DNA from: a virus
Taxonomy: Duplodnaviria > Caudoviricetes
Strand: one strand, 5' to 3'
IMG/VR virus record: IMGVR_UViG_3300006802_000103
Location: 1-62,674 of that record
DNA length: 62,674 nucleotides
Below the pieces are notes generated by a model that had not been told where the DNA came from, made no database searches, and saw nothing but the letters and a program-made list of their open reading frames with translations. This document shows, in pieces, positions 47,572-57,827 of this stretch (position 1 is the first letter of the stretch; the number at the start of each line of letters is the position of its first letter). Both the position numbers and the translations under genes were made by a program.

Positions 47572-48285
47572 TTACCAGCCACCGGTCAGGGGGTAGAGTG
47601 CCATCTGCTGCCCCCAGCCGGGGACAAGTGCCTGGGAGGGGGCTACAGTCGGGTCGCCGAGTTCAAATCCCTCATCCCGGCCCATTCTTTCAATCTCAAA
47701 ATCCGCCATTGCGATCAATTCCCCCACCTTCGGGGAACCGGTCGCGACGGCTGCGGCCCACCGGAAGACTTGGGTCACTCCAGCGAGGTGTCGGTCGTCC
47801 CAGGGGAGGAGGGTAGTACCCATAGTCGCGGCGGTCACCTTAGTCGGGTTCTTCTTATAATCCCCCGTGATGATCCACTCGTGCCCCCCGACGTTCCCCG
47901 GACACGGGCGGTCGAGGCGGAAGGTGGCGGAGGCCGGGTCGTAGCTTATGTAGGAACAGAAGTCGCAGACGTGGGTCTTCCGGACATCTTTACGAACTTG
48001 CAACTCGTACACCTGCGGCGGGAAGACGGAGGTCCGGGTTAGGTAGGCGAGGTGGAATCCCGCGAAGTCGGAGGGGACCGCTACTTGAGGAGCGCCGTAT
48101 TCCTGTTTATATGGGACGAGGCAGAAGGGGCGGAGTTTCCCGAGAGTTTGACGGAAGGGACCGTAGTTCCAAATCCGCTCATTCGCCATGTTACAAATCG
48201 CAACCGCCTTGATGTCCTCCTCCGCGAGTGAGAACTGTCCCCGGACGAGGTTGAAGACATCTTGGTATTTGTAAGTGGAGGCCAT
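47572..48285 (-). CDS. Head-tail adaptor / tail tubular protein A-like
   Basis: MASTY start, IWNYGPFRQT, P.DF; paralogue-like to 48285..48968. Confidence 0.6.
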   Translation of the reverse strand: MASTYKYQDVFNLVRGQFSLAEEDIKAVAICNMANERIWNYGPFRQTLGKLRPFCLVPYKQEYGAPQVAVPSDFAGFHLAYLTRTSVFPPQVYELQVRKDVRKTHVCDFCSYISYDPASATFRLDRPCPGNVGGHEWIITGDYKKNPTKVTAATMGTTLLPWDDRHLAGVTQVFRWAAAVATGSPKVGELIAMADFEIERMGRDEGFELGDPTVAPSQALVPGWGQQMALYPLTGGW

Positions 48286-48968
48286 TATTTAGTCAGCGGC
48301 GGAACCGGCGGGACGAGGAGCGGCTCCCTCATCTTCATTATCGCAAGGTTCGCCTCGACAATCCCGCGCTGGCCGGTGTAGGTCGCGGATTTCCCGTCCG
48401 ACTGCGAACCGCCCGCGCGCTGGTCATCCGTGTAGAGGTAGGCGAAGTAGAGGACAATCGACTTGTAAACCCAAAACCACTCGTCGTCGAATACCTGAAC
48501 ACCTGTAGTCTGGGCGTTCGCGGCTGTGATCGTGGGACACGTCTTCTTATACATCGCAATGATTTTCGTACCCGATGTAACAGAACTTCCCGGCTTCGGG
48601 AACACTCGGTAGGTATCTGTCGCAGGGTGTGATATCTGGGAAGGCTGTCCACCTATCTGCTGCACAGTGGAGTGGATGTGCGAAGTGACTTCAATGTACC
48701 GACCAACGTCCGAACCGCCTTCGCTCAGGTAGACTGACCCCGGTTGGATATAGAGGAAGTCTGCCGGGTCGGTAATTGTGTAGTCGGAGGTGTTCGCGGC
48801 TAGCGTCAGCGCCGTGATATTCCCCAACGTCCACCGCCAGGGGGCCGCCATCCAGAAGAAGCGTGCCGCATCGTCTAAAATCTGCGGCATGACTGGTTCG
48901 AGATTGGGGTACTTGACGAATGCGTTGATGTAATCGAATCCGTCGCGAGGGCAGTAGGTGGAGGCCAT
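48285..48968 (-). CDS. Head-tail adaptor / tail tubular protein A-like
   Basis: MASTY start, FW.AAPWRWT, DY....DF, RVFP.P. Confidence 0.6.
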   Translation of the reverse strand: MASTYCPRDGFDYINAFVKYPNLEPVMPQILDDAARFFWMAAPWRWTLGNITALTLAANTSDYTITDPADFLYIQPGSVYLSEGGSDVGRYIEVTSHIHSTVQQIGGQPSQISHPATDTYRVFPKPGSSVTSGTKIIAMYKKTCPTITAANAQTTGVQVFDDEWFWVYKSIVLYFAYLYTDDQRAGGSQSDGKSATYTGQRGIVEANLAIMKMREPLLVPPVPPLTK

Positions 48969-49422: not shown

Positions 49423-49881
49423 CTATTCTAACCTATACCCACTGGCATCTGGAAGTGACTCCCAACGCCCATCCCAACCGACCACATCCGCCATCTTCGC
49501 ATACGTCCAGCGGGTCACTTTCGCCCGCGTGTCCAGGTGGATGTAGGAGCGCCAGGGGTCGACACCTATCCCGTGGAACTCAGGAAATCTGAGCACCGCT
49601 TTATAAAGTTCCTTGAGTGGGAGCTTGTCAACCGAGATGTCCGCTGCGATTCCGTAAGTGTGCGCGGAGTAGGTCCCCGGAGCCTTCGCCCTCTCCACGG
49701 GATGCGCCATGCAGCGGAATCCGGAGTTGATCTGAATGGGCCGCGCGATGGAATCGCGTAACCTCTGTAACAAACGGACGAAATCCAACTGAATTCCCCG
49801 CGACCGGCAGTGGTGGCAAAGGAATTCAGATTCCCGAAAGGAGTCGGTGAGGAACTTATCCTCCCTCTGAAATTCGGTCAC
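49423..49881 (-). CDS. Peptidase M15A endolysin
   Basis: F..SEF.C, LQ.LR, INSGFRC..H, SAH.YG.AAD, IHLDTR. Confidence 0.85.
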   Translation of the reverse strand: MTEFQREDKFLTDSFRESEFLCHHCRSRGIQLDFVRLLQRLRDSIARPIQINSGFRCMAHPVERAKAPGTYSAHTYGIAADISVDKLPLKELYKAVLRFPEFHGIGVDPWRSYIHLDTRAKVTRWTYAKMADVVGWDGRWESLPDASGYRLE

Positions 49882-50555
49882 GCGGGGGCCTCCATTCCCG
49901 TCTGGTCCTTACCGGTGGCGACTTTCCATCCTCGGGTGTCGGCGGATCCGAATTCCCGCTCCACGTCACCGAGGAAGAGTTCTCCGGCAGCTAGGAGGTA
50001 GAGGAGGACTGTCCGCCACCCCCGCTTGACCTCACGCCACGGGAGTTCAACCTCCTCCTCGCCCGGAAGCAACCCATGAAACCGCGTCTCCCCCGCCTCC
50101 GGGTCCCACTCCGACTTCGGCATATCTTTTGAATTGATGTGCATAACCGCCTGCTTCCCATCCGCATTCCGGTTATCCGGGTTGAAGAAGGGGAGGGGGT
50201 TGAATTCGATTTCCGTCTGCCGTGCGCGGAGGCTAAATTCGGGAATCCAAGGGTTCTCGTAGACACAGAGACAGACCGCCTCGCCTAGCCGCCAGATGTA
50301 GCAAACTCGCTTATCCGGCTTCAGCGGGAGTGTTTTGAACTTCAACCTCGGGTTCAGTTTCAGAAGCCGCTTCTCAAACTCCTCCGTCAGACAACCGCGC
50401 GCCGCCCTGTCCGCATTCGTCGGGTCGTCGGCGGTATCAATCCAAACCGCCTGGGAGTGGCACCTCCGGTAGTACTCCTGGAGGTCCTCGTAATACTTGT
50501 CAATCAAAGCCTCTTGAGCGAGACGGTCAAGCGCCGCCTCATCACGAACCAACAT
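49878..50555 (-). CDS. Hypothetical late protein
   Basis: PEFS and RGWRTVLL.L motifs. Confidence 0.6.
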   Translation of the reverse strand: MLVRDEAALDRLAQEALIDKYYEDLQEYYRRCHSQAVWIDTADDPTNADRAARGCLTEEFEKRLLKLNPRLKFKTLPLKPDKRVCYIWRLGEAVCLCVYENPWIPEFSLRARQTEIEFNPLPFFNPDNRNADGKQAVMHINSKDMPKSEWDPEAGETRFHGLLPGEEEVELPWREVKRGWRTVLLYLLAAGELFLGDVEREFGSADTRGWKVATGKDQTGMEAPA

Positions 50556-50839
50556 TACTGCTCCTTACGGCGCTCGATTGATGTTCGCAATTCTGTGACC
50601 GCGATCCGGAGATCGATGGAGGCTTTCGTAAGTTCCCCGATTGCCGAATCGTGTTTCGCCACAATAGTTTGCAACTCCTGCACCTGTTGAGATTTTACAC
50701 CATAGGCGTAAGAGGATGCCCCGGCGATTGAAAGAAGAGTGACTGTCGCCGCGATTGCTTCTCTCAGGGAAATCTTAACCGGCGACTCGGGGGACATCGG
50801 GGATGTTGGCGGGTTGATGACGGAATCGAAAACAGGCAA
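50555..50839 (-). CDS. Single-TM coiled-coil protein (holin/spanin-like lysis accessory)
   Basis: TM helix followed by coiled coil; near the endolysin. Confidence 0.45.
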   Translation of the reverse strand: MPVFDSVINPPTSPMSPESPVKISLREAIAATVTLLSIAGASSYAYGVKSQQVQELQTIVAKHDSAIGELTKASIDLRIAVTELRTSIERRKEQ

Positions 50840-50848
50840 AGCTTTTCC

Positions 50849-51253
50849 TTAATTTGGAGTAAACGGCGTAGTACCAGCAGTCGGGACCGTCAGCGTGGCG
50901 CTCGGCGGGGATGCAGTCGAGGAGGTAACAGTCCAGACTGCTGAAGGGCCTGCTACTTGACGACCGGTGGAGTCGTAGTACCAGGAGATGTATTTCGTGT
51001 TCGGCGGCGTGATGTCGGCGTTCCAGAGAATGCCTATGCCGGAGGAGAAGGTCCCGTTTACGATGGGGCAGACGAGGAAGTCGGGGACGGGGACTTGGGG
51101 GAAGGAGTTGGAGAAGACGGCTTCAGTGTATGAGCCGGTGGAAGGGAGGACTAGGGAGACGAGGAGAAAGCCGTTGAAATTGGTCGCGTCGGACCACTGG
51201 ACTACGGTTGATTGGTCGAAGGTTGCGTAGCGCGTGGGGGAAGCGGCGGGCAT
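50849..51253 (-). CDS. Virion structural protein (beta-rich)
   Basis: WNADITP.NT.Y motif; late motif at 51261. Confidence 0.55.
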   Translation of the reverse strand: MPAASPTRYATFDQSTVVQWSDATNFNGFLLVSLVLPSTGSYTEAVFSNSFPQVPVPDFLVCPIVNGTFSSGIGILWNADITPPNTKYISWYYDSTGRQVAGPSAVWTVTSSTASPPSATLTVPTAGTTPFTPN

Positions 51254-51276
51254 TGCATATCTATTGTATCGGGACG

Positions 51277-51462
51277 CTAGTCGATTCTATTTATCATCGC
51301 GATATCGACGTACTCGCTCCCCTGAATCCCGAGAAAATGAGCGAACTCTTCCATCGACAGCGAGCATTTGACGATAGTCATGGTCAGTCTCGGATAGGTT
51401 GGTTCGGGAACCCAAGCGCCGGGACAAACTGCGAGGAGTCCGAAGAGTGAGCGGCGGGTCAT
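51277..51462 (-). CDS. Tat-signal peptide fused to a capsid-protein fragment (MCP ~76-108)
   Basis: MTRRSLFGLLA; LTMTIVKCSLSMEEFAHF vs MCP LTMTSTKVAATVSEFSNF; ATGA-coupled to the upstream gene. Confidence 0.6.
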   Translation of the reverse strand: MTRRSLFGLLAVCPGAWVPEPTYPRLTMTIVKCSLSMEEFAHFLGIQGSEYVDIAMINRID

Positions 51463-51704
51463 TTTGAATACCGGTACCAATAAAGCGTCTTGCCCGAGGC
51501 AGGCGGGAATCGAACTGTCCTCTCGCATACTTCGCGGAATAGGAATTTCTTCTGCAATCGGTCCCGGGCTTTCTGGCTTATGTACAAAGTCCAGGCTGTC
51601 CGTAGCGGCGGGATCGACTGAACTACAGCCGGAGGTAATTTTGCGATGACCGTTTGGGCCGCCGCTGTGCCGAGAAGTGCTGCTAGAAATCCGCGTCTTT
51701 TCAT
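51459..51704 (-). CDS. Tat-signal peptide fused to a capsid-protein fragment (MCP ~21-57)
   Basis: MKRRGFLAALLGTAAA; KARDRLQKKFLFREVC..GKTLYWYRY vs MCP KALSRLQKKFRFRDLC..GRTAVWFRY. Confidence 0.75.
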   Translation of the reverse strand: MKRRGFLAALLGTAAAQTVIAKLPPAVVQSIPPLRTAWTLYISQKARDRLQKKFLFREVCERTVRFPPASGKTLYWYRYSK

Positions 51705-51985
51705 TTCTGCTTCGGCTCCTTCCAGATAAACATCGAAGCCTCAATCCGCGCCAGATCCATTTCGTTAATCGCGAAAAGTTCAGGTAGCGGCTCGACCATT
51801 CCTTCGAGACTCTTTACGGCTTCTCGGATCTGTTCAATGGTTAGCTTTTCAGGCATGTGAAAGAGCGAGGAGCGGGGGCTTATTCTCATCAGACGGCAGG
51901 TCGGCCCAAAGTAGGTCGACCAAGCTGAACCCGCATCCCTCCGGTACAACCCGGAGATTCTGCTTAAACTATCCTCGCTTTTCAA
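51701..51985 (-). CDS. Hypothetical protein (start may be 51856)
   Basis: Stop overlaps the next ATG (ATGA). Confidence 0.45.
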   Translation of the reverse strand: MKSEDSLSRISGLYRRDAGSAWSTYFGPTCRLMRISPRSSLFHMPEKLTIEQIREAVKSLEGMVEPLPELFAINEMDLARIEASMFIWKEPKQK

Positions 51986-52419
51986 GTGTAGCGTGGCGGC
52001 GGTTGGAAGTCAACCTCCCTCCACTCTCCCGCGAAGCCCTTCCAGTTCTGGAGTGGAAATTCGACCGCCGGTAGGTCTTTCGACTGTCCTATAAGTTTCG
52101 CGGGATCGGGATTCCGCATCGCAGCCCATCCGCCCGACTCGAATCCGGTCTCTGTGGCCCATTTATGGACGCAGGAGGCCGAGCAGAAGTATCGGCCATA
52201 CGGTTGTTCATAAAGGCGCGGGAGCGGAACAGTAAAGCCCTTCGGAACCCACGGCTGCGGTCTTGTATCCAAAAGTACCCCGCAGCAGGAACAACCCCGG
52301 ACATACCCTGGCGGCGGCGGTGGTATGAATTTATCTCGGAGTTTACCTAATTGCGGAACCAAAAGCGCCTTCCCGATAACCGGAAGGCTGAGGAGGGAGA
52401 GGAAGAAGCGTCTTTTCAT
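51982..52419 (-). CDS. Tat-signal protein with TRASH/YHS-like CxxC..FCSxxC finger
   Basis: MKRRFFLSLL; CSCCG...YFCSASC. Confidence 0.6.
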   Translation of the reverse strand: MKRRFFLSLLSLPVIGKALLVPQLGKLRDKFIPPPPPGYVRGCSCCGVLLDTRPQPWVPKGFTVPLPRLYEQPYGRYFCSASCVHKWATETGFESGGWAAMRNPDPAKLIGQSKDLPAVEFPLQNWKGFAGEWREVDFQPPPRYT

Positions 52420-52446
52420 TGAGGTCTCTGCCTCAACGATAGCAGA

Positions 52447-52716
52447 TTACTTCCCCAACCACAACAGGGAAGCCCAAATTCCCACAGCAGTCCCGGTCGC
52501 TCCACCCAAGGTGTACCCCGCGAAACCCCAACCGCCGCTCTCCTCCTTCGCGATCTTCTTAATCACAAACCAGTTTGCTGCGCCGAATATGACATCAACT
52601 AGGACTGACTTTGCGATATCTGCTTGGGCAACTGCTCTCCAGGAGATGCAAACGACTCCGTAGGTCCAGAACTGGAGGGCGAAGAAGGTGAGGAAGTTTT
52701 TGATATTGGTCGACAC
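52447..52716 (-). CDS. Small multi-TM membrane protein (leaderless GTG)
   Basis: Three hydrophobic helices, Y.LGG..GT..G; TGGACT-17-TACACT 6 nt upstream. Confidence 0.65.
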   Translation of the reverse strand: MSTNIKNFLTFFALQFWTYGVVCISWRAVAQADIAKSVLVDVIFGAANWFVIKKIAKEESGGWGFAGYTLGGATGTAVGIWASLLWLGK

Positions 52717-52789
52717 GATTGAAGTGTAGCAAATCTGCGCGCGGGAGTCCAGAGGAGGGGCATAGGAGTCTATTCTCCCACGGATGGAG

Positions 52790-52820
52790 AAAGAAAAAGC
52801 CCCGACCGAAGCCGGGGCTA
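52790..52820 (-). terminator. Terminator of the capsid transcript
   Basis: AGCCCCGGC-TTCG-GTCGGGGCTTTTTCTTT on the minus strand. Confidence 0.85.
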
Positions 52821-52840
52821 AATCCTTTGTTTTGTTGCGG

Positions 52841-53824
52841 TTAGGCGATTGTCGATTGCGCGTCAATCGTCTTGGCGCGGAAGGAACCACCGATACCCGT
52901 CGGACCATCCAACCAAAGCGCCGAGTAGAGGTAGCGGTACGATACCCAGCCACCGATCATCCCTTCCGGATCGAACCCGGACGGGACGCCGCCCTTGACG
53001 ACCTTGATGTTGAAGTTCTCCTTCGACGGGTCGGTCACCTTCGCGGGGGCAGCACCGGCCAGGGTCAAGCAGCCGAAAGCGCCGTTGCCGAAGATATAAG
53101 TGCGCCATTTGTTCGGCGAGGTCGAGGAGTAGACATTCGTGGACTCGATGACCTTCGCACCGGCGACATGGGTCACAACGCCCCGGTCGTCGCGGGAGAC
53201 GAGGTTGGCTTTCTGCGGAGTCGTGTATTTGAAGATATCCGCGAGACCATTGGCCGCAGGGTCGGACACGAGGTCGTAGGAGTTGTACGGCGAGGTCAGG
53301 ACCTTGAACTCACCGTCTTCGAACGGTTCGACATCGATGGCTTGCAGAGTGTGGACCGCCGCGCGGATGTCGCTGACACGGAGGTAGGTCGCGATGGGGG
53401 ACTGATTGGTGTTCGAACTCTCAGCGTCAATAGCCGCGCGGGTGATATTGTCTACCGACAAACCGCCACGATAACCCAAGAGAGTGCCAGCGGCTTCCAA
53501 CTGCGGGTCGGGCGCGGTCTCTTCGCGAAGGGTCGAGACGGAAATGAAGTTCGAGAACTCCGAAACCGTAGCCGCGACCTTCGTCGAGGTCATCGTGAGG
53601 GAAGTGCCGACTGCGCCTTCGGTGGAAGGAGTCGTCCCGGCGGCGAGGTTGGCGTAGCGGAACCAGACAGCCGTCCGGCCTTCGCGCATTCCCAACTGAT
53701 CCTCAACGCAGAGGTCGCGGAAACGGAACTTCTTTTGAAGCCGGGAAAGCGCCTTTCGACGGATTGCTTCCGACTGAAGATGGGCTAGGCCGAGGGTAGT
53801 ATTACCTGCGGGAGCGTAAGCCAT
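52841..53824 (-). CDS. Major capsid protein (N4-gp56-like HK97 fold)
   Basis: G.T..W.RY..L, EG..G, LG...G..VD, DP..MIG..VSY; lies after the scaffold with a strong SD and terminator. Confidence 0.85.
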   Translation of the reverse strand: MAYAPAGNTTLGLAHLQSEAIRRKALSRLQKKFRFRDLCVEDQLGMREGRTAVWFRYANLAAGTTPSTEGAVGTSLTMTSTKVAATVSEFSNFISVSTLREETAPDPQLEAAGTLLGYRGGLSVDNITRAAIDAESSNTNQSPIATYLRVSDIRAAVHTLQAIDVEPFEDGEFKVLTSPYNSYDLVSDPAANGLADIFKYTTPQKANLVSRDDRGVVTHVAGAKVIESTNVYSSTSPNKWRTYIFGNGAFGCLTLAGAAPAKVTDPSKENFNIKVVKGGVPSGFDPEGMIGGWVSYRYLYSALWLDGPTGIGGSFRAKTIDAQSTIA

Positions 53825-53921
53825 ATCTGAAATCTCCTGTGCGGTTAAACAATGTCCGCAGAATTATTGTATCGCAGGAGTTTCGGTGGATATGGTATTT
53901 TCAGTAAATGCTGAAAAGAGG

Positions 53922-54710
53922 CTAGAACCCGCCCCGGAAATTCTGCCCGTGGGCCTTCGCGTAGACTTCATTGAACTTATCATCCGGTAGGCTGCGGTAG
54001 AAAGCGGCCCATTCCTGGTCGGTCTGGGGCATTCCGTTACCGGTGGATGGGGCTTGGCGACCGGGGGACGGGGGCGCGGCGGGGCGTCCATTTTGCGTTT
54101 GCTGCGTTTGCTCCGGCCCTTTGATATGCCCGGTGCCGCGAGCGTAGTGGTAGGCCGCTTCGAGACCTTCCGCAGTATTCCCCAGGCCCAGGTATTCCCG
54201 CGCCTGCTGGACGATTTGGAACTGCTGGGGATCCTTCTGCAAGTCCTCATGCCGCTGGAGGAAGGAGGTCTCCGCGAGCGAGCGGTCCATGAGGGCGGTC
54301 TTCGTAGTGAGTTCACGGAGGAGCGCCGAGGCATCGTCGACTTTACCGTCGTAAACACCGGTGCCGATGAGGAGGTTCGCGACCCCCCGCATATCCCCCT
54401 TCTCCAAGAGTTCAACGAATTGCTTCGTGGCTGCGGGGACTTCACCCGGCTTCGGAGGTTCCGGCTCTTTGACAACCGGTTTCTTCGCCTCTTCCAATCG
54501 GGCCTGGGCGGCGGCGAGTTCGGCTTGCTGCTTCGCAAACTGGCCTTCGAGCGCGCGCTCAGCCTCCGCTTGGGTTGGGAAGGTGTAGTCCTTCCCGCCG
54601 AGGTGGAGCTTGAACCCCTGGGCCTCCTTGGGTTTCTCCCCGTCTGTCTGCTCGGAAGCGAGTTGCGCGACGAGTGCGTCGAAGTCTTCGAAATTGAGAT
54701 TATCGGCCAT
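53922..54710 (-). CDS. Capsid scaffolding protein
   Basis: Acidic, helical; lies between portal and MCP. Confidence 0.7.
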   Translation of the reverse strand: MADNLNFEDFDALVAQLASEQTDGEKPKEAQGFKLHLGGKDYTFPTQAEAERALEGQFAKQQAELAAAQARLEEAKKPVVKEPEPPKPGEVPAATKQFVELLEKGDMRGVANLLIGTGVYDGKVDDASALLRELTTKTALMDRSLAETSFLQRHEDLQKDPQQFQIVQQAREYLGLGNTAEGLEAAYHYARGTGHIKGPEQTQQTQNGRPAAPPSPGRQAPSTGNGMPQTDQEWAAFYRSLPDDKFNEVYAKAHGQNFRGGF

Positions 54711-54716
54711 GCGAGA

Positions 54717-55031
54717 TTATTCTACTATAGCCAATTCTTCCGCCGCCCCCTCCTGCACAGTAGCAGGCCCTTCAACATCATACTTCGACCGGAACTCCTC
54801 TACAAGCTGTCGCTCGTGGGATTTGAGAACCCGCAAGATGTGGCGGTAGGCTTTCATGAAGGAGACGAGTTTCCGCTCCTCTTCCGCGCTCATCTCCCAC
54901 GACTCCAGCCGGGTGACTAAGTTGTCCGCTTCCGATTGGAGGACATCGAGGATCAGTTTACCTCCGGGGGAGGCGAGGGCGAGGTACATTTGCTCGCGGT
55001 CGTAGGTGGTTATTTCGCGTGGTTCAGCCAT
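54717..55031 (-). CDS. Small portal-adjacent protein (Bbp19-like)
   Basis: ALASPGGKLILD.L motif. Confidence 0.6.
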   Translation of the reverse strand: MAEPREITTYDREQMYLALASPGGKLILDVLQSEADNLVTRLESWEMSAEEERKLVSFMKAYRHILRVLKSHERQLVEEFRSKYDVEGPATVQEGAAEELAIVE

Positions 55032-55525
55032 TTGCTTAGTGTATTCTCCAGCCACTCTTTTCTTGCACGCGCCATTTCTGGTGCTCCGGAGTCGGTTATT
55101 TCCGCAGGAGAGGGGATTCGGTCAGCACGCCAGCTACCTAAGCAAACACTTGACCTAATAGGCTCTCCGTCGGCAGTCAGAATCCACATTTGTTCCCCCC
55201 GCGACCCTTTTTTGACGATAACAACTCTCGCGCGATACACCCCCTCGGGGTCATCCATGCAAGGCACAATCGGCGCGTAGGTGCAATTTTCAAACACATC
55301 CGTCCTTCGGAAATTGTGTGAGTGAATAATGGTTTCCTCAGAAACCCAAATTATTTTAGGAAACTTAGCCTCCCACCGGAGTTTTTCGACGAAGGCACAG
55401 TTATAGGTGTGTTCTTCGATTGTGGATGCGCTGTAGTTCCATCTGGGCAGGGAGCGCTGCGTGGTTGCTGCGGCGGGTAGGAGAGAGCAGCCGAAAGCCG
55501 CTCGTAGGAAATTTCTTCGAAGCAT
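55010..55525 (-). CDS. Tat-signal protein inserted between portal and scaffold, with its own promoter
   Basis: MLRRNFLRAAFGCSLLPAAA; TTGACA-18-TATACT 6 nt upstream of the ATG. Confidence 0.65.
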   Translation of the reverse strand: MLRRNFLRAAFGCSLLPAAATTQRSLPRWNYSASTIEEHTYNCAFVEKLRWEAKFPKIIWVSEETIIHSHNFRRTDVFENCTYAPIVPCMDDPEGVYRARVVIVKKGSRGEQMWILTADGEPIRSSVCLGSWRADRIPSPAEITDSGAPEMARARKEWLENTLSKWLNHAK

Positions 55526-55562: not shown

Positions 55563-57827
55563 TTAGGCCGGTCGCGGCTTCTTCTCCGCCTTCTTCGGCC
55601 CCGCTTCGCCACCCGGTTTCGCCCCGGCTTTGGCTGCGGACATTTTCTTCATCTGTTCGAGTTTGACGGAGTGTTCGGCTTCCGAGTGCTCACGGGAGAT
55701 TTGGGCATCCAGTTCGGCGTTATATCGGTTCAACTCCGAATCCTGTGCGGCGGAGGTCATTTTGAACTGATGCTCCTGCTGCTGGCCCGCGAGCTTCATA
55801 GCGTTCGCCTGCGCGTCGGATTGCATCTTCATCTGCGCCTTCTGTTGTTCGAGTTGTATCCGCATCGCTTCCGACTGAATCTTCATCTCGGCAAGCTGCT
55901 GCTCGACTTGCAGTTTCATCTGCTCCAGTTCCATCTGCATCTGGTGCTTTTCCTGCTCCATCTGCATCTTGGCGGCTTCGGCGTACTGCTGCGACTCGTC
56001 CGGCTGCTTTTTGATGATCTCTTTCTGTATATCCGACTGCGCCTTCATCTGCCCCATTTGCAGCCGGACTTGGTTGGAGCGGTCAGCCATCTGCATCTGC
56101 TGCTGCTTCTCCTGTTGCGCGGCTTGGATCTCCTGCGGGGACATCTGGCGGTAGAGGGGGTATTGTTCGGAGGTCCCGGTGGCGTCCTGGAGGAGCCGGG
56201 TGATGGAATCGGTGTCGAGGGTGATGTTTGTGGAGTTTAGATTGCCGAGGAGCGGGCCGGACATTCCGTATTGGAAGACGAGGGGAAGGGCGGCTTGCAA
56301 CTGTTCCCTCCGGAGCATTCTGGAGGCCGCGACGATTCGGAAGCTGACTTCATTCAGGAAGACCGCGCCGGAAACCTTCCGCGCCGGGGCCGACATGGAT
56401 GAACGTGCGTTAACCATGTCCGTCGGCTGGAGGTGGTAGCGGTTGATCTTGGTCATCCCGTAGAGCATGGGGATGATGAGGTAGTCTTCGATGTTGGCGA
56501 TGATTTGGAAGAGACGGAGGGATGCGCCGGAGACTTGCGCGTTTACCCCAGTCGCAGTTCGGGACTGATTCGTGGAGCGTGGAATGCCGGATCCGCTTAT
56601 TCCAGTGAGCCTCTCCGCCGACTGATCGATGTAGGCGAGTTCGGAGTAGACGTTCGCAGTGACATCCTGGGGAGCGAGGGAGAGGATGTCTTCCTTCGGG
56701 TTCTGGACTTGATACGTCTGCCCCGGTGCCCAACGCTGCTGTGCGGGGGTTAGGAGCATTCCGTGGGAGGTTGCGCGCGGCGGGTTTAGGGTGAGGTTTA
56801 CGTTGTCCAGACGGGCGTTGAAGAGGGCTTCCTTATACCGCTGGTAGGAATCCTGCTCGTCCGCGACACCCCTGGCGTAGAAGCGACCGGGGACCTCATA
56901 ACAGGGAGCGAAGAAGTAGGGGATGAAACCGTAAGGGTTCCGCTCGTTATACATCACCCAGGAGCGGCCCAGGACCCAGATGATGCGGTTGGCGGAGTGG
57001 TAGATGAGGACTTCAATCTTTCGGTCGGCGGGGTTGGGTTGGAAATCGGACGAGCCGGGGGCGTAGAACATTCCGCGCGTGGCTTCGGAGTACTGCATCG
57101 TCATATCCCCCGCAGTGTAGGGGTTCATCCCGGCGAGGGCATATAGCTGTTCGTCCGAGGGAACGTCCATTCCCTGTGTGCCCCGGTAGGAGCGGATTTC
57201 GGCCAGCGGGAGGGAGAGTTTCCGGATGACGGAGGTCGAGGAGGAGATGTCCGGGGACGGCGTGCCGGGGTCGATGTAGATGTCGCGGATGTCGACGAAT
57301 TCAGGGACAGTGCGTTGCTTCTCTGCGTCCCAGCGGACGGTCACCCCGCCGTTGCCGTGTTGGAGGATTTGTTTGATCGCGGTTACAACTTCCGGTCTGG
57401 CCGAACCGCGAAAGTCCCCCCGCGCGTGCTCGAAGTCGTAGAAGAGTTTGTCCCGCACTGCTTGGACATCTTCCGGCTTTCCATCCTCCTCCCCGATGAC
57501 CTGAAACCAGTCGTCGGAGGGGAAGATCGCAGTCACCAGGGAGGGAAGCGCGGTTTCCACCTGTTCAAAGACTAGGGGGAAAGGGAGAGAGGAACGCGGA
57601 ACCGTAGTCCCCGGCCAAGTCCTCTGAGCCATCGCGCCGAAGTATAAAGCGTCATGATTCTTCAACTTCGGGTCCACATTGGACATTCGCCAAGTTTCCC
57701 ACGCGGACATGGACTTCGTTACCAGGGAGAGAGCGGTCTCCGCCGTTAGGCTCGAATCCGGCTTGATTAACGGCGCACTATCCAGGTCGGTCTGTTGGAG
57801 ACTCGGAACTTGTTCAATATTCGGCAT
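55563..57827 (-). CDS. Portal protein (podovirus type) with Q/M-rich coiled-coil tail
   Basis: RS..P...EQVET, DIYIDP, NPYG.IP, FY..G, RLDN..L..NPP, TATG. Confidence 0.9.
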   Translation of the reverse strand: MPNIEQVPSLQQTDLDSAPLIKPDSSLTAETALSLVTKSMSAWETWRMSNVDPKLKNHDALYFGAMAQRTWPGTTVPRSSLPFPLVFEQVETALPSLVTAIFPSDDWFQVIGEEDGKPEDVQAVRDKLFYDFEHARGDFRGSARPEVVTAIKQILQHGNGGVTVRWDAEKQRTVPEFVDIRDIYIDPGTPSPDISSSTSVIRKLSLPLAEIRSYRGTQGMDVPSDEQLYALAGMNPYTAGDMTMQYSEATRGMFYAPGSSDFQPNPADRKIEVLIYHSANRIIWVLGRSWVMYNERNPYGFIPYFFAPCYEVPGRFYARGVADEQDSYQRYKEALFNARLDNVNLTLNPPRATSHGMLLTPAQQRWAPGQTYQVQNPKEDILSLAPQDVTANVYSELAYIDQSAERLTGISGSGIPRSTNQSRTATGVNAQVSGASLRLFQIIANIEDYLIIPMLYGMTKINRYHLQPTDMVNARSSMSAPARKVSGAVFLNEVSFRIVAASRMLRREQLQAALPLVFQYGMSGPLLGNLNSTNITLDTDSITRLLQDATGTSEQYPLYRQMSPQEIQAAQQEKQQQMQMADRSNQVRLQMGQMKAQSDIQKEIIKKQPDESQQYAEAAKMQMEQEKHQMQMELEQMKLQVEQQLAEMKIQSEAMRIQLEQQKAQMKMQSDAQANAMKLAGQQQEHQFKMTSAAQDSELNRYNAELDAQISREHSEAEHSVKLEQMKKMSAAKAGAKPGGEAGPKKAEKKPRPA

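What the first reader, a model, noticed from the sequence alone, without database searches (positions are those of the whole stretch)
51277..51704. Two consecutive genes, each a Tat signal peptide fused to a successive fragment of the major capsid protein
Seen: 51459..51704 begins MKRRGFLAALLGTAAA (RRxFL twin-arginine leader). It ends ISQKARDRLQKKFLFREVCERTVRFPPASGKTLYWYRY, which aligns with MCP residues 21-57 (IRRKALSRLQKKFRFRDLCVEDQLGMREGRTAVWFRY) at 17 identities with one gap, counted by hand. The ATGA-coupled gene 51277..51462 begins MTRRSLFGLLA and contains LTMTIVKCSLSMEEFAHF, matching MCP 76-93 (LTMTSTKVAATVSEFSNF) at 8/18 ungapped. The fragments are collinear with the MCP, and the second leader sits where MCP 58-75 would be. 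Inference: a diverged second capsid gene was cut into pieces and each piece given an export or membrane-tether leader. Possible roles are a decoy for capsid-sensing immunity (CapRel/Lit/Avs-type sensing), interference with capsid assembly of competing phages, membrane tethering of procapsids, or Tat-translocon jamming. I know of no description of this arrangement.
Basis: partly seen in the sequence, partly recalled or inferred. Interest (0 to 1): 0.92.

Follow-up and report, generated by a model that had tools for sequence, protein, structure and literature searches.

The report
Export-tagged mini-gene from a capsid piece
An uncultured freshwater phage carries, in a variable cargo island behind its capsid gene, a small intact gene that joins a twin-arginine export-type leader to an old copy of the capsid protein's N-terminal arm, followed by a broken continuation read as a second small gene; whether either is made or useful is untested.

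Summary
The sequences, coordinates and hand counts are right. The first piece is real. Gene 51459-51704 (81 aa) matches a profile of 29 related capsid proteins, with its own capsid protein left out, at E 8e-10. It is a 20-residue RR leader joined to capsid residues about 2/15-59.

The second piece (51277-51462) is marginal. It is the best hit in the genome, at E 0.034, but beside an unrelated hit at 0.048. The family profile does not report it.

The capsid frame runs on through the first gene's TGA. The second 'twin-arginine' is the -1 reading of the capsid's Leu-Ala-Ala codons, which read Pro-Arg-Arg in real capsid genes too.

Both genes lie at the far end of a 1.6-kb island at a hypervariable site. 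Neither has a relative in 1.84 billion representatives, in 71 related loci or in 10 relatives' records.

Best reading (0.5): a relic of a second, divergent capsid gene whose first part became a small membrane-targeted gene. Rival (0.33): a dead scar. Decoy or assembly roles have no support.

This scan has noted the same design on other phage DNA. I could not reproduce that in my small sample.

The parts
51459..51704 (-). 81-aa ORF. Codons 1-20 are an RR-type leader (51645-51704). Codons 21-81 are a diverged copy of capsid residues about 2/15-59, the N-arm with the RLQKKFxFRxxC motif (51462-51644).
51277..51462 (-). 61-aa ORF that overlaps the previous stop by ATGA. Its first ~17 codons overprint the old capsid frame in -1, including the RR. 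The rest is weakly like capsid residues 76-96 of the own lineage and/or 111-135 of the family.
51701..51985 (-). ORF of up to 94 aa, more likely 51 aa from the ATG at 51856. Its stop overlaps the start of the 81-aa gene (ATGA). It has no relatives.
51982..52419 (-). 145-aa ORF with an RR leader (MKRRFFL...) and a Cys-rich middle. It shares a 13-nt identical start region with the 81-aa gene.
   Evidence: D15
52447..52728 (-). About 93-aa protein with three hydrophobic stretches; the first gene of the island.
52798..52819 (-). Terminator-like hairpin (9 pairs, 7 G-C, T run) directly behind the capsid gene.
52841..53824 (-). Major capsid protein, 327 aa, N4-gp56 type as JGI names its relatives.
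51261..51268 (-). TACAATAG late-gene motif between the island and the next conserved gene.
   Evidence: 9 matches, about 1 expected; D9
50849..51253 (-). Conserved 134-aa gene. In relatives it follows the capsid gene after a gap of 77 to 3949 bases.
55010..55525 (-). Fourth RR-leader ORF (171 aa, MLRRNFLR...), between portal and scaffold genes, behind a TTGACA-18-TATACT site.

Best explanation
WHAT IT IS
It is a relic of roughly the first 60-135 codons of a second, divergent N4-gp56-type capsid gene. It sits at the far end of a 1.6-kb island that only this phage has, at a hypervariable cargo site between the capsid gene and the next conserved structural gene.

FIRST GENE (81 codons)
The first ~59 codons of the relic survive as an intact gene. 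A new 20-codon twin-arginine-type leader replaces the capsid gene's promoter, leader region and start codon. The gene is chained by ATGA overlaps to the ORF before it and the ORF after it.

SECOND ORF (61 codons)
Behind codon 59 the relic is broken. A TGA lies in the old frame, followed by a frame change with extra bases and probably a deletion. What remains is read as a second ORF. Its Arg-Arg is the -1 reading of the capsid's Leu-Ala-Ala codons. Its hydrophobic stretch and its ATG are new.

HOW IT MOST LIKELY WORKS (inferred, not shown)
- The 81-aa product, and perhaps the 61-aa one by translational coupling, is made together with the other small island proteins.
- Its RR/hydrophobic N-terminus takes it to the cytoplasmic membrane, either as a Tat-type signal or as an uncleaved signal anchor.
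- The passenger is a disordered ~60-residue copy of the capsid N-arm that keeps the arm's most conserved motif.
- It would act in the cell envelope, as accessory cargo genes at such sites commonly do. The capsid-derived part would be raw material rather than a capsid part.

MY ODDS FOR THE SEPARATE STEPS
- Capsid origin of the first gene: 0.95.
- Capsid origin of the second ORF: 0.6.
- First gene translated and kept by selection: 0.55.
- Tat-dependent export: 0.35.
For: ORIGIN
- Profile of 29 relatives, own capsid left out: E 8e-10 for the first ORF's frame among 2065 open frames.
- phmmer over 1.84 billion representatives finds only the protein itself and one 327-aa capsid protein, E 4.7e-4, query 23-80 on capsid 4-60.
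- The match runs on through the TGA to profile position 67.
- The copy is not a recent duplicate. Silent sites are saturated (pS 0.59-1.05) with pN 0.28-0.54 against 40 capsid genes.
- It lacks the own lineage's two-residue deletion.
- It scores better against other lineages than against its own capsid.

ISLAND
- In 10 relatives the gap between the capsid gene and the 134-aa gene is 77-3949 bases; here it is 1587.
- The other island ORFs have 0 tblastn hits in 71 related loci.
- The island has no blastn match in 50,697 phage records.

POINTS FOR A LIVE FIRST GENE
- No stop and no frameshift in 81 codons, whereas the next ~75 capsid codons carry 3-4 disruptions.
- An AGGAG lies 11 nt before the ATG, and the ATG overlaps the previous stop.
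- The leader DNA is unlike the upstream regions of 13 relatives' capsid genes and of the own capsid gene.
- It shares 13 identical bases with the start of the neighbouring RR-leader gene.
- All 7 positions of the motif are kept, against 7 of 13 other columns that are >=90% conserved. My hand Fisher test gives p about 0.04, and the motif was chosen post hoc.
- The annotated frame has the best codon score of six.

LEADER
- All four leaders fit TatP's expression RR.[FGAVML][LITMVF] (PMC1182353, passages) and are followed by 12-17 uncharged residues.
- Four such leaders lie in 4.3 kb here. In 763,852 bases of relatives there are 27 start sites among 20,068 candidate starts.

SPLIT
- The split is real: two further runs give identical contigs across it.
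Against: - There is no relative of either ORF anywhere I searched. Selection therefore cannot be measured, and a singleton fits a young scar as well as a young gene.
- The 81-aa ORF has lost 6 of 20 residues that capsid proteins keep at >=90%. It is further from every capsid protein (28-44%) than they are from each other (40-100%). That is what relaxed constraint looks like.
- Its codon score (0.034) lies at the low edge of real genes, whose 5th percentile is -0.011.
- Neither Pfam (E <= 1) nor NCBIfam (E <= 10) reported a Tat-signal model for any leader.
- TatP's expression alone is wrong for 15-23% of RR proteins.
- The passenger is predicted to be disordered: Atlas model pLDDT 0.46, and the same part of the capsid model is under 50. 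Tat usually carries folded cargo.
- The RR of the second ORF is explained by descent, so only one of the two leaders looks added.
- In my own sample of 10 small RR-leader ORFs from other viral contigs, none showed a copy of another gene of its contig.
Confidence: 0.5

Rival explanations
1. Dead recombination scar. A 5' piece of a foreign or old capsid gene was left at the edge of a cargo island by illegitimate recombination and is decaying. The two ORFs, their ATGA overlaps and the leader-like starts are by-products and give no useful protein.
For: - It is a singleton in every search.
- A TGA lies in the old frame. A frame change, extra bases and truncation follow.
- The second RR comes free from the -1 frame of Leu-Ala-Ala codons. 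Own capsid and 4 of the 7 relatives shown read RR there, and 3 of those (L004, L013, L028) read (P)RR or PRG.
- 6 of 20 near-invariant capsid residues are lost.
- The codon score is low.
Against: - 81 codons stay open with an ATG, an AGGAG and an overlap with the previous stop, while the adjoining part is broken several times.
- By my rough estimate from the share of lost conserved residues, an intact frame under neutral decay has odds of a few in 100. This is inference, not a call.
- The first leader is foreign to capsid upstream DNA and shares its first 13 bases with a neighbouring leader.
- Four such leaders in 4.3 kb are far above the rate in relatives.
- After the RR, real capsid genes read charged peptides in the -1 frame, not a hydrophobic stretch.
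Confidence: 0.33
2. Capsid-directed function. The N-arm copy binds the scaffold, the capsid protein or a host capsid sensor. It would act as a decoy, an assembly inhibitor of competing phages, or a membrane tether.
For: - The arm's most conserved motif is kept at 7 of 7 positions.
- In print, other elements use proteins that compete at capsid-scaffold contacts: SaPI1 CpmB, PMC5644958. I saw only the title and the start of the abstract.
Against: - An N-terminal RR/hydrophobic leader with its positive charges first would place the passenger outside the cytoplasm, away from scaffold, procapsids and the known cytoplasmic sensors. This follows from established topology rules and is not a call.
- Capsid relatives in 10 related records carry no such copy.
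- There is no PADLOC match.
Confidence: 0.1
3. One product by -1 slippage. The ribosome slips back on the A-run before the TGA (TCA AAA TGA) and makes a 142-residue fusion that carries both capsid pieces in their order. The 'second leader' would then be an internal hydrophobic linker in place of the E-loop tip.
For: - The Lys tRNA can re-pair on AAA one base back, and the next -1 codon is the ATG of the second ORF (read).
- The two pieces are collinear.
Against: - There is no canonical heptamer and no stimulatory structure was looked for.
- The site is a single case with no relatives.
- ATGA overlaps are the ordinary form of coupled genes.
Confidence: 0.04

Closest known systems
Twin-arginine (Tat) signal peptides and uncleaved Tat signal anchors (for example Rieske proteins)
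   Same: - RRxFL-type motif right after the start.
- A short, Ala/Gly/Thr-rich uncharged stretch, and an AAA-Q site in the 81-aa ORF.
- Weak likeness of residues 1-33 to the PetC anchor model, E 0.052 and below cut-off.
   Different: - No Tat-signal model reported.
- The passenger is a disordered 60-residue peptide, not a folded cofactor protein.
- The host and its Tat system are unknown, and no export test exists.
Accessory cargo ('moron') genes at hypervariable hotspots of phage genomes
   Same: - It lies between two conserved late genes where relatives carry other cargo or none.
- It follows the capsid terminator and precedes the next late motif.
- It encodes small membrane or exported-looking ORFans.
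- Hotspots of this kind are surveyed in bioRxiv 10.1101/2024.10.15.618418, of which I saw the listing and the start of the abstract.
   Different: One cargo gene is built from a piece of the phage's own type of capsid gene. I did not find that described.
Capsid-assembly mimics of satellites
   Same: Small proteins related to, or competing with, head-assembly proteins, encoded outside the normal head gene set.
   Different: - Those act in the cytoplasm on the helper's procapsid and have no export leader.
- CpmB resembles scaffold, not capsid.
- Nothing here shows binding.
Overprinting, or gene birth from a frame-shifted older gene
   Same: The second ORF's first ~17 codons are the old capsid codons read in -1, including the RR.
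   Different: Whether the new frame gives a working protein is unknown.
This scan's own unpublished notes on 'export-tagged mini-proteins made from virion pieces'
   Same: The same design: an RR leader plus a piece of the phage's own capsid protein, often as two coupled genes. It is noted on other phage genomes.
   Different: - Those notes speak of large families with a shared leader. Here both ORFs are singletons by sequence.
- Only the capsid, not the portal or 8 other head-module proteins, has a copy.
- The notes are AI notes that I could not check.

Membership tests
N4-gp56-type major capsid protein (HK97 fold) | Significant sequence match to the family profile | tested here: met
   81-aa ORF: E 8e-10, profile 15-60; E 1.6e-10, profile 18-67. 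The 61-aa ORF is not reported at E <= 10.
N4-gp56-type major capsid protein (HK97 fold) | Full length of about 330 aa with spine helix, P and A domains | tested here: not met
   Only the part before the spine helix (helix 107-134 in the model) is present. It is a fragment, not a capsid protein.
Tat signal peptide | RR.[FGAVML][LITMVF] near the N-terminus followed by an uncharged stretch | tested here: met
   RRGFL with 17 uncharged residues and RRSLF with 15. The expression is from PMC1182353. Alone it is wrong for 15-23% of RR proteins.
Tat signal peptide | Match to curated Tat-signal models (Pfam PF10518 and TIGR01409; accessions recalled) | tested here: not met
   No such family listed at E <= 1 (Pfam) or E <= 10 (NCBIfam). 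Short models are easily lost to the filters.
Tat signal peptide | Export that depends on TatC and on the RR pair | not testable with these tools
   Needs fusions in tat+ and tat- cells. TatP and SignalP are not on hand.
Phage accessory cargo (moron) at a hotspot | Variable content between conserved flanking genes; absent from relatives | tested here: met
   Gap of 77-3949 bases in 10 relatives. Island ORFs have 0 hits in 71 loci.
Phage accessory cargo (moron) at a hotspot | Own promoter and terminator | tested here: inconclusive
   A terminator lies before the island and two 9-of-12 promoter-like sites lie inside it. No terminator was found behind it.
Pseudogene (decaying duplicate) | Stops or frameshifts relative to the parent gene | tested here: met
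   TGA inside the capsid-frame match; frame change and 74 nt against 48 nt. This holds for the part behind codon 59 only.
Pseudogene (decaying duplicate) | No intact reading frame with start signals | tested here: not met
   The 81-codon ORF has an ATG, an AGGAG 11 nt upstream and a stop-start overlap.
Scan's 'export-tagged virion-piece mini-proteins' (undescribed, AI notes) | RR leader joined to a copy of a piece of the phage's own virion protein | tested here: met
   Met for the 81-aa ORF; marginal for the 61-aa ORF.
Scan's 'export-tagged virion-piece mini-proteins' (undescribed, AI notes) | Sequence relatives sharing the leader in many phages | tested here: not met
   phmmer over 1.84 billion representatives finds no short relative. 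Of 29 viral-contig matches to the leader's DNA start, 10 are small RR-leader ORFs, but none shows a virion-piece copy.

The most novel reading that the evidence does not exclude
The 81-aa gene is one instance of a widespread, undescribed habit of tailed phages: joining a Tat-type export or anchor leader to short copies of conserved pieces of their own virion proteins. Here that piece is the capsid N-arm with its RLQKKFxFRxxC motif. The copy would be placed at or beyond the cytoplasmic membrane, where it acts on something that recognises capsid pieces. That could be an envelope-level exclusion of incoming related phages or a membrane-bound host sensor. The second ORF shows how such a gene can arise, by overprinting the old capsid frame.
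Probability: 0.25. Interest if true: 0.8.

Novelty: new variant of a known kind. Interest (0 to 1): 0.5.

Why it matters
If the 81-aa gene is live, it is a clean, datable case of a phage turning a scrap of its capsid gene into a small membrane-targeted protein. It would also show a second ORF being born by reading the old codons in another frame.

If the design really recurs across unrelated phages, as this scan's unchecked notes say, it would point to an unknown use of capsid peptides outside the cytoplasm.

If it is a scar, it is still useful. It marks the capsid-to-next-gene junction as a cargo exchange site in this phage group. It also warns that Ala-Ala codons read in -1 give 'twin arginines' for free.

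Tried and rejected
The one metagenome scan gave only 2 distant loci. The genome-contig scan gave 2 distant loci that name no host. A single-protein scan of viral contigs gave nothing.
- POPULATION VARIATION. Four other runs hold the stretch with 0 differences, so no polymorphism test was possible.
- EXPRESSION. No RNA holder was listed.
- COMPLEX FOLD. Capsid protein with residues 21-81 of the 81-aa ORF: no answer, score 0.00. This is not evidence either way.
- ATLAS. The best feature scores were 0.86 and 0.83, below the 0.9 line. Rows named for Tat signals or TRASH/zf-FCS are leads only.
- FAMILY LIBRARIES. Pfam, PHROGs, NCBIfam and PADLOC gave nothing above cut-off for the island ORFs.
- OTHER VIRION PIECES. 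Profiles of portal, scaffold and 7 further head-module proteins hit no island frame at E <= 10. Weak tblastn hits of three island ORFs to the portal gene (E 0.048-0.43) are therefore noise. A broad tblastn of 5801 ORFs against the island was too noisy to use.
- FLANKING REPEATS. I saw no direct-repeat pair bracketing the two ends of the island.
- RECURRENCE. 29 viral-contig matches to the leader's first codons gave 10 small RR-leader ORFs. None had a PHROG match to a head protein. None had a within-locus hit. The 3 searched against their whole records gave no hit except one paralogous leader in L093's record. The sample is small and was chosen by codon identity, and PHROGs also misses the 81-aa ORF itself.
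- REJECTED IDEAS. An assembly frameshift is ruled out. A recent duplicate of the own capsid gene is ruled out. A leader derived from the capsid 5' region is ruled out. A canonical lipobox in the 61-aa ORF is ruled out because Val stands at -1 (read).
- SUPPLEMENTS. I did not ask for supplementary files of papers.
Full report
SETTING
The window is a whole virus record of 62,674 bases, estimated 98% complete. The runs that hold it are labelled freshwater or aquatic metagenomes. All genes discussed are on the minus strand.

The head module reads as follows:
- Portal, 55563-57827. It matches the SU10 portal model at E 2e-24.
- A 171-aa ORF with an RR leader, 55010-55525.
- A 112-aa gene and a 262-aa gene at the scaffold position.
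- The major capsid protein, 52841-53824. It matches phrog_1357 at E 3.5e-15. JGI names its relatives 'N4-gp56 family'.
- A strong terminator-like hairpin, 52819-52798.
- A 1587-base island.
- The late-gene motif TACAATAG at 51261-51268. There are 9 matches in the window against about 1 expected.
- A conserved 134-aa gene, 50849-51253.

The nearest cultured phage is Tunturiibacter phage Tunturi_3, whose capsid protein is 28% identical. That is too far to name a host.

THE OBSERVATION

The first likeness is far beyond chance.
- A profile built from 29 related capsid proteins, with this phage's own left out, was searched against all 2065 stop-to-stop frames of the window. It finds the capsid gene and then only the frame of the 81-aa ORF, at E 8e-10 and profile positions 15-60.
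- A full HMMER pass over 1.84 billion representative proteins finds only the ORF itself and one 327-aa capsid protein. That hit has E 4.7e-4, with query 23-80 on capsid 4-60.

The second likeness is weak.
- Only 1 of 2000 shuffles reaches its score against the own capsid protein.
- Against the whole window it has E 0.034, beside an unrelated hit at 0.048.
- The family profile does not report it.
- Searched alone, it aligns at E 0.04 to other positions, 111-134. Pairwise shuffles for that alignment give 16, 63 and 76 of 2000.
- Its place directly behind the first piece makes a capsid origin likely. I put it at about 0.6, not more.

ANATOMY OF THE COPY
An alignment with 31 capsid proteins places residue 21 of the 81-aa ORF on capsid residue 2. 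The copy then runs to residue 59 with one extra residue. Residues 1-20 are an addition.

The AlphaFold model of the capsid protein has mean pLDDT 61. Residues 1-27 and 44-104 are under 50. Strands lie at 55-58 and 79-97, and the spine helix at 107-134. By the usual layout of the HK97 fold, the copied part is the N-arm and the first E-loop strand. These parts are ordered only in the lattice. The Atlas model of the ORF is likewise poor (pLDDT 0.46).

The copy is old and did not come from this phage's present capsid gene.
- Against 40 capsid genes, silent sites are saturated (pS 0.59-1.05) while pN is 0.28-0.54.
- It lacks the own lineage's two-residue deletion.
- It is 28-44% identical to capsid proteins, which are 40-100% identical among themselves in the same 61 columns.
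- It keeps 15 of 21 columns that are at least 90% conserved, or 14 of 20 without the start Met. It keeps 10 of 40 others.
- All seven positions of the L..KKF.FR..C motif are kept, against 7 of the 13 other conserved ones.

BEHIND CODON 59
The capsid-frame match runs on through the TGA of the first ORF to profile position 67. The old frame still reads Ser/Thr-like residues where the capsid has its Thr-Thr-Pro-Ser-Thr-Glu stretch.

The start of the second ORF lies in the -1 frame of these old codons. Its Thr-Arg-Arg is the -1 reading of xCC-GCC-GCx. The own capsid gene and 4 of the 7 relatives shown also read Arg-Arg at that place in -1. For example, Val-Pro-Val-Phe-Gln-Pro-Arg-Arg in L013 compares with Val-Pro-Val-Phe-Lys-Met-Thr-Arg-Arg here. 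So this 'twin arginine' is inherited.

Two things are new: the ATG, which is part of a TGA codon that real capsid genes lack at this place, and the hydrophobic run after the RR. In real capsid genes the -1 frame reads charged residues there.

Between capsid positions about 70 and 76 the frame changes, and the stretch is 74 nt instead of 48. If the second alignment is right, about 22 codons are also missing. The copy ends near position 135.

The split is not an assembly fault. Contigs of runs X2 and X5 cover 51330-51488 without a difference.

THE FIRST LEADER IS AN ADDITION
The 60 bases that encode it are unlike the upstream DNA of this phage's capsid gene and of 13 relatives. Many of those upstream regions show a late promoter-like motif, and several an AGGAG.

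Its first 13 bases, counted from the base before the ATG, are identical to the start of the 145-aa RR-leader gene 715 bases upstream (D15).

All four leaders of this phage fit the default expression of TatP (PMC1182353, passages read) and are followed by 12-17 uncharged residues. They lie within 4.3 kb. The same rule gives 11 start sites in 9 ORFs among 1552 candidate starts in the window. It gives 27 among 20,068 in 763,852 bases of relatives. A stricter rule gave 14 start sites in 10 ORFs in 745,063 bases.

Against this, no curated Tat-signal model was reported, and I could not run TatP or SignalP.

THE ISLAND
A homologue of the 134-aa gene is found in 30 of the 71 related viral loci. In 10 that I measured it follows the capsid gene after 77 to 3949 bases, with various ORFs or none between.

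The island's other ORFs have no tblastn hit in those loci. These are the three-helix membrane protein, the 145-aa gene, the 94-aa ORF and the 61-aa ORF. The island has no blastn match in 50,697 phage records.

The 81-aa ORF hits 59 loci once each. The 12 best hits listed all lie at the 5' end of the capsid gene.

The capsid profile finds no second copy in the whole records of 10 relatives, three of them complete. The same method finds the copy here at E 1.6e-10. Profiles of nine other head-module proteins hit nothing in the island.

So the copy is unique to this phage, and only the capsid gene has one.

LIVE GENE OR SCAR?
For a live first gene:
- 81 open codons lie next to a stretch with three or four disruptions.
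- It has an ATG, an AGGAG at 11 nt, and stop-start overlaps on both sides.
- It has a foreign leader that resembles three neighbours.
- It keeps the motif.
- It has the best codon score of the six frames (0.034; real genes have mean 0.168 and 5th percentile -0.011).

For a scar:
- It has no relative at all, so no test of selection is possible.
- It has lost six near-invariant residues.
- Its codon score is low.
- Its passenger is disordered.
- The second leader is largely explained by descent.

I put a kept, translated first gene at about 0.55 and the whole best reading at 0.5.

WHAT THE SCAN NOTED BEFORE
It also showed a set of notes from other genomes on 'twin-arginine leaders fused to pieces of the phage's own virion proteins'. 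One of these was later re-checked with mixed result. These are AI notes and I do not count them as support.

They did make me test recurrence myself.
- Of 29 viral-contig matches to the leader's first codons, 10 are small RR-leader ORFs of unknown function.
- One record has two neighbouring ORFs with leaders 71% identical.
- None of the 10 shows a copy of another gene of its locus, nor do the 3 that I searched against their whole records.
- Small RR-leader ORFans are thus common in phage contigs. In this small sample I could not confirm that they are often made of virion pieces.

LITERATURE
Five full-text searches gave no paper on phage genes that join an export leader to a capsid piece. A 2026 review of Tat transport mentions phage only for phiX174 lysis protein and SlyD (PMC13673990, passages). 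The nearest things in print that I saw were SaPI1 CpmB (PMC5644958, listing and start of abstract) and surveys of hypervariable hotspots (bioRxiv 10.1101/2024.10.15.618418, listing and start of abstract).

VERDICT
It is a real chimeric ORF of capsid origin in a cargo island, with a frame-shifted remainder behind it. Function is untested and the decoy ideas have no support. I score interest at 0.5, because the case is a singleton but fits a design that may be general.

Noticed in passing
window 51277-55525: Four ORFs with RRxFL-type leaders lie within 4.3 kb of the head module (starts at 55525, 52419, 51704 and 51462). None has a relative. The 171-aa one returned only itself.
   Followed up: partly
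window 51982-52419: The 145-aa RR-leader ORF has a CxCC...FCSxxC pattern. It gives weak hits to zf-FCS (E 0.8) and, by structure at TM under 0.5, to TRASH/YHS clusters. It may be a small metal-binding exported protein.
   Followed up: partly
window 52447-52728: A ~93-aa protein with three hydrophobic stretches heads the island. It has no family match and could be holin-like or an exclusion protein.
   Followed up: no
window 51261-51268, 53858-53874 and 7 other sites: TA(C/G)AATAG occurs 9 times against about 1 expected, mostly just before late genes. CGATACAATA stands before both the capsid gene and the 134-aa gene. Relatives show GGTACAATAAA or GGTATAAT before their capsid genes.
   Followed up: partly
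window 47572-48285 and 48285-48968: Two adjacent genes (237 and 227 aa) are paralogues. Each one's family profile hits the other at E 1e-47 to 1e-50. Relatives carry the pair too.
   Followed up: partly
window 49423-49881: Peptidase M15-type endolysin without a leader (Peptidase_M15_3 E 1.6e-11; phrog_894 E 1e-22). A 94-aa protein with one membrane helix and a coiled-coil-like tail lies at 50555-50839.
   Followed up: no
L093 (record G001) 692-763 and 1083-1331: A provirus record from another sample has two neighbouring small ORFs whose RR leaders are 71% identical over 24 residues.
   Followed up: partly
L032 8015-11884, L037 8015-10392, L016 8141-9848: In relatives the same capsid-to-next-gene gap holds long unrelated ORFs, up to 532 aa, some with Sec-like signal starts. 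It is a cargo hotspot of the whole group.
   Followed up: no
window 53650-53660 and the same codons in L004, L013, L016: The Leu-Ala-Ala codons of capsid genes read (Pro)-Arg-Arg in the -1 frame. Ala-rich genes in G+C-rich phages will often show 'twin arginines' in shadow frames, which is a trap for reading by eye.
   Followed up: yes
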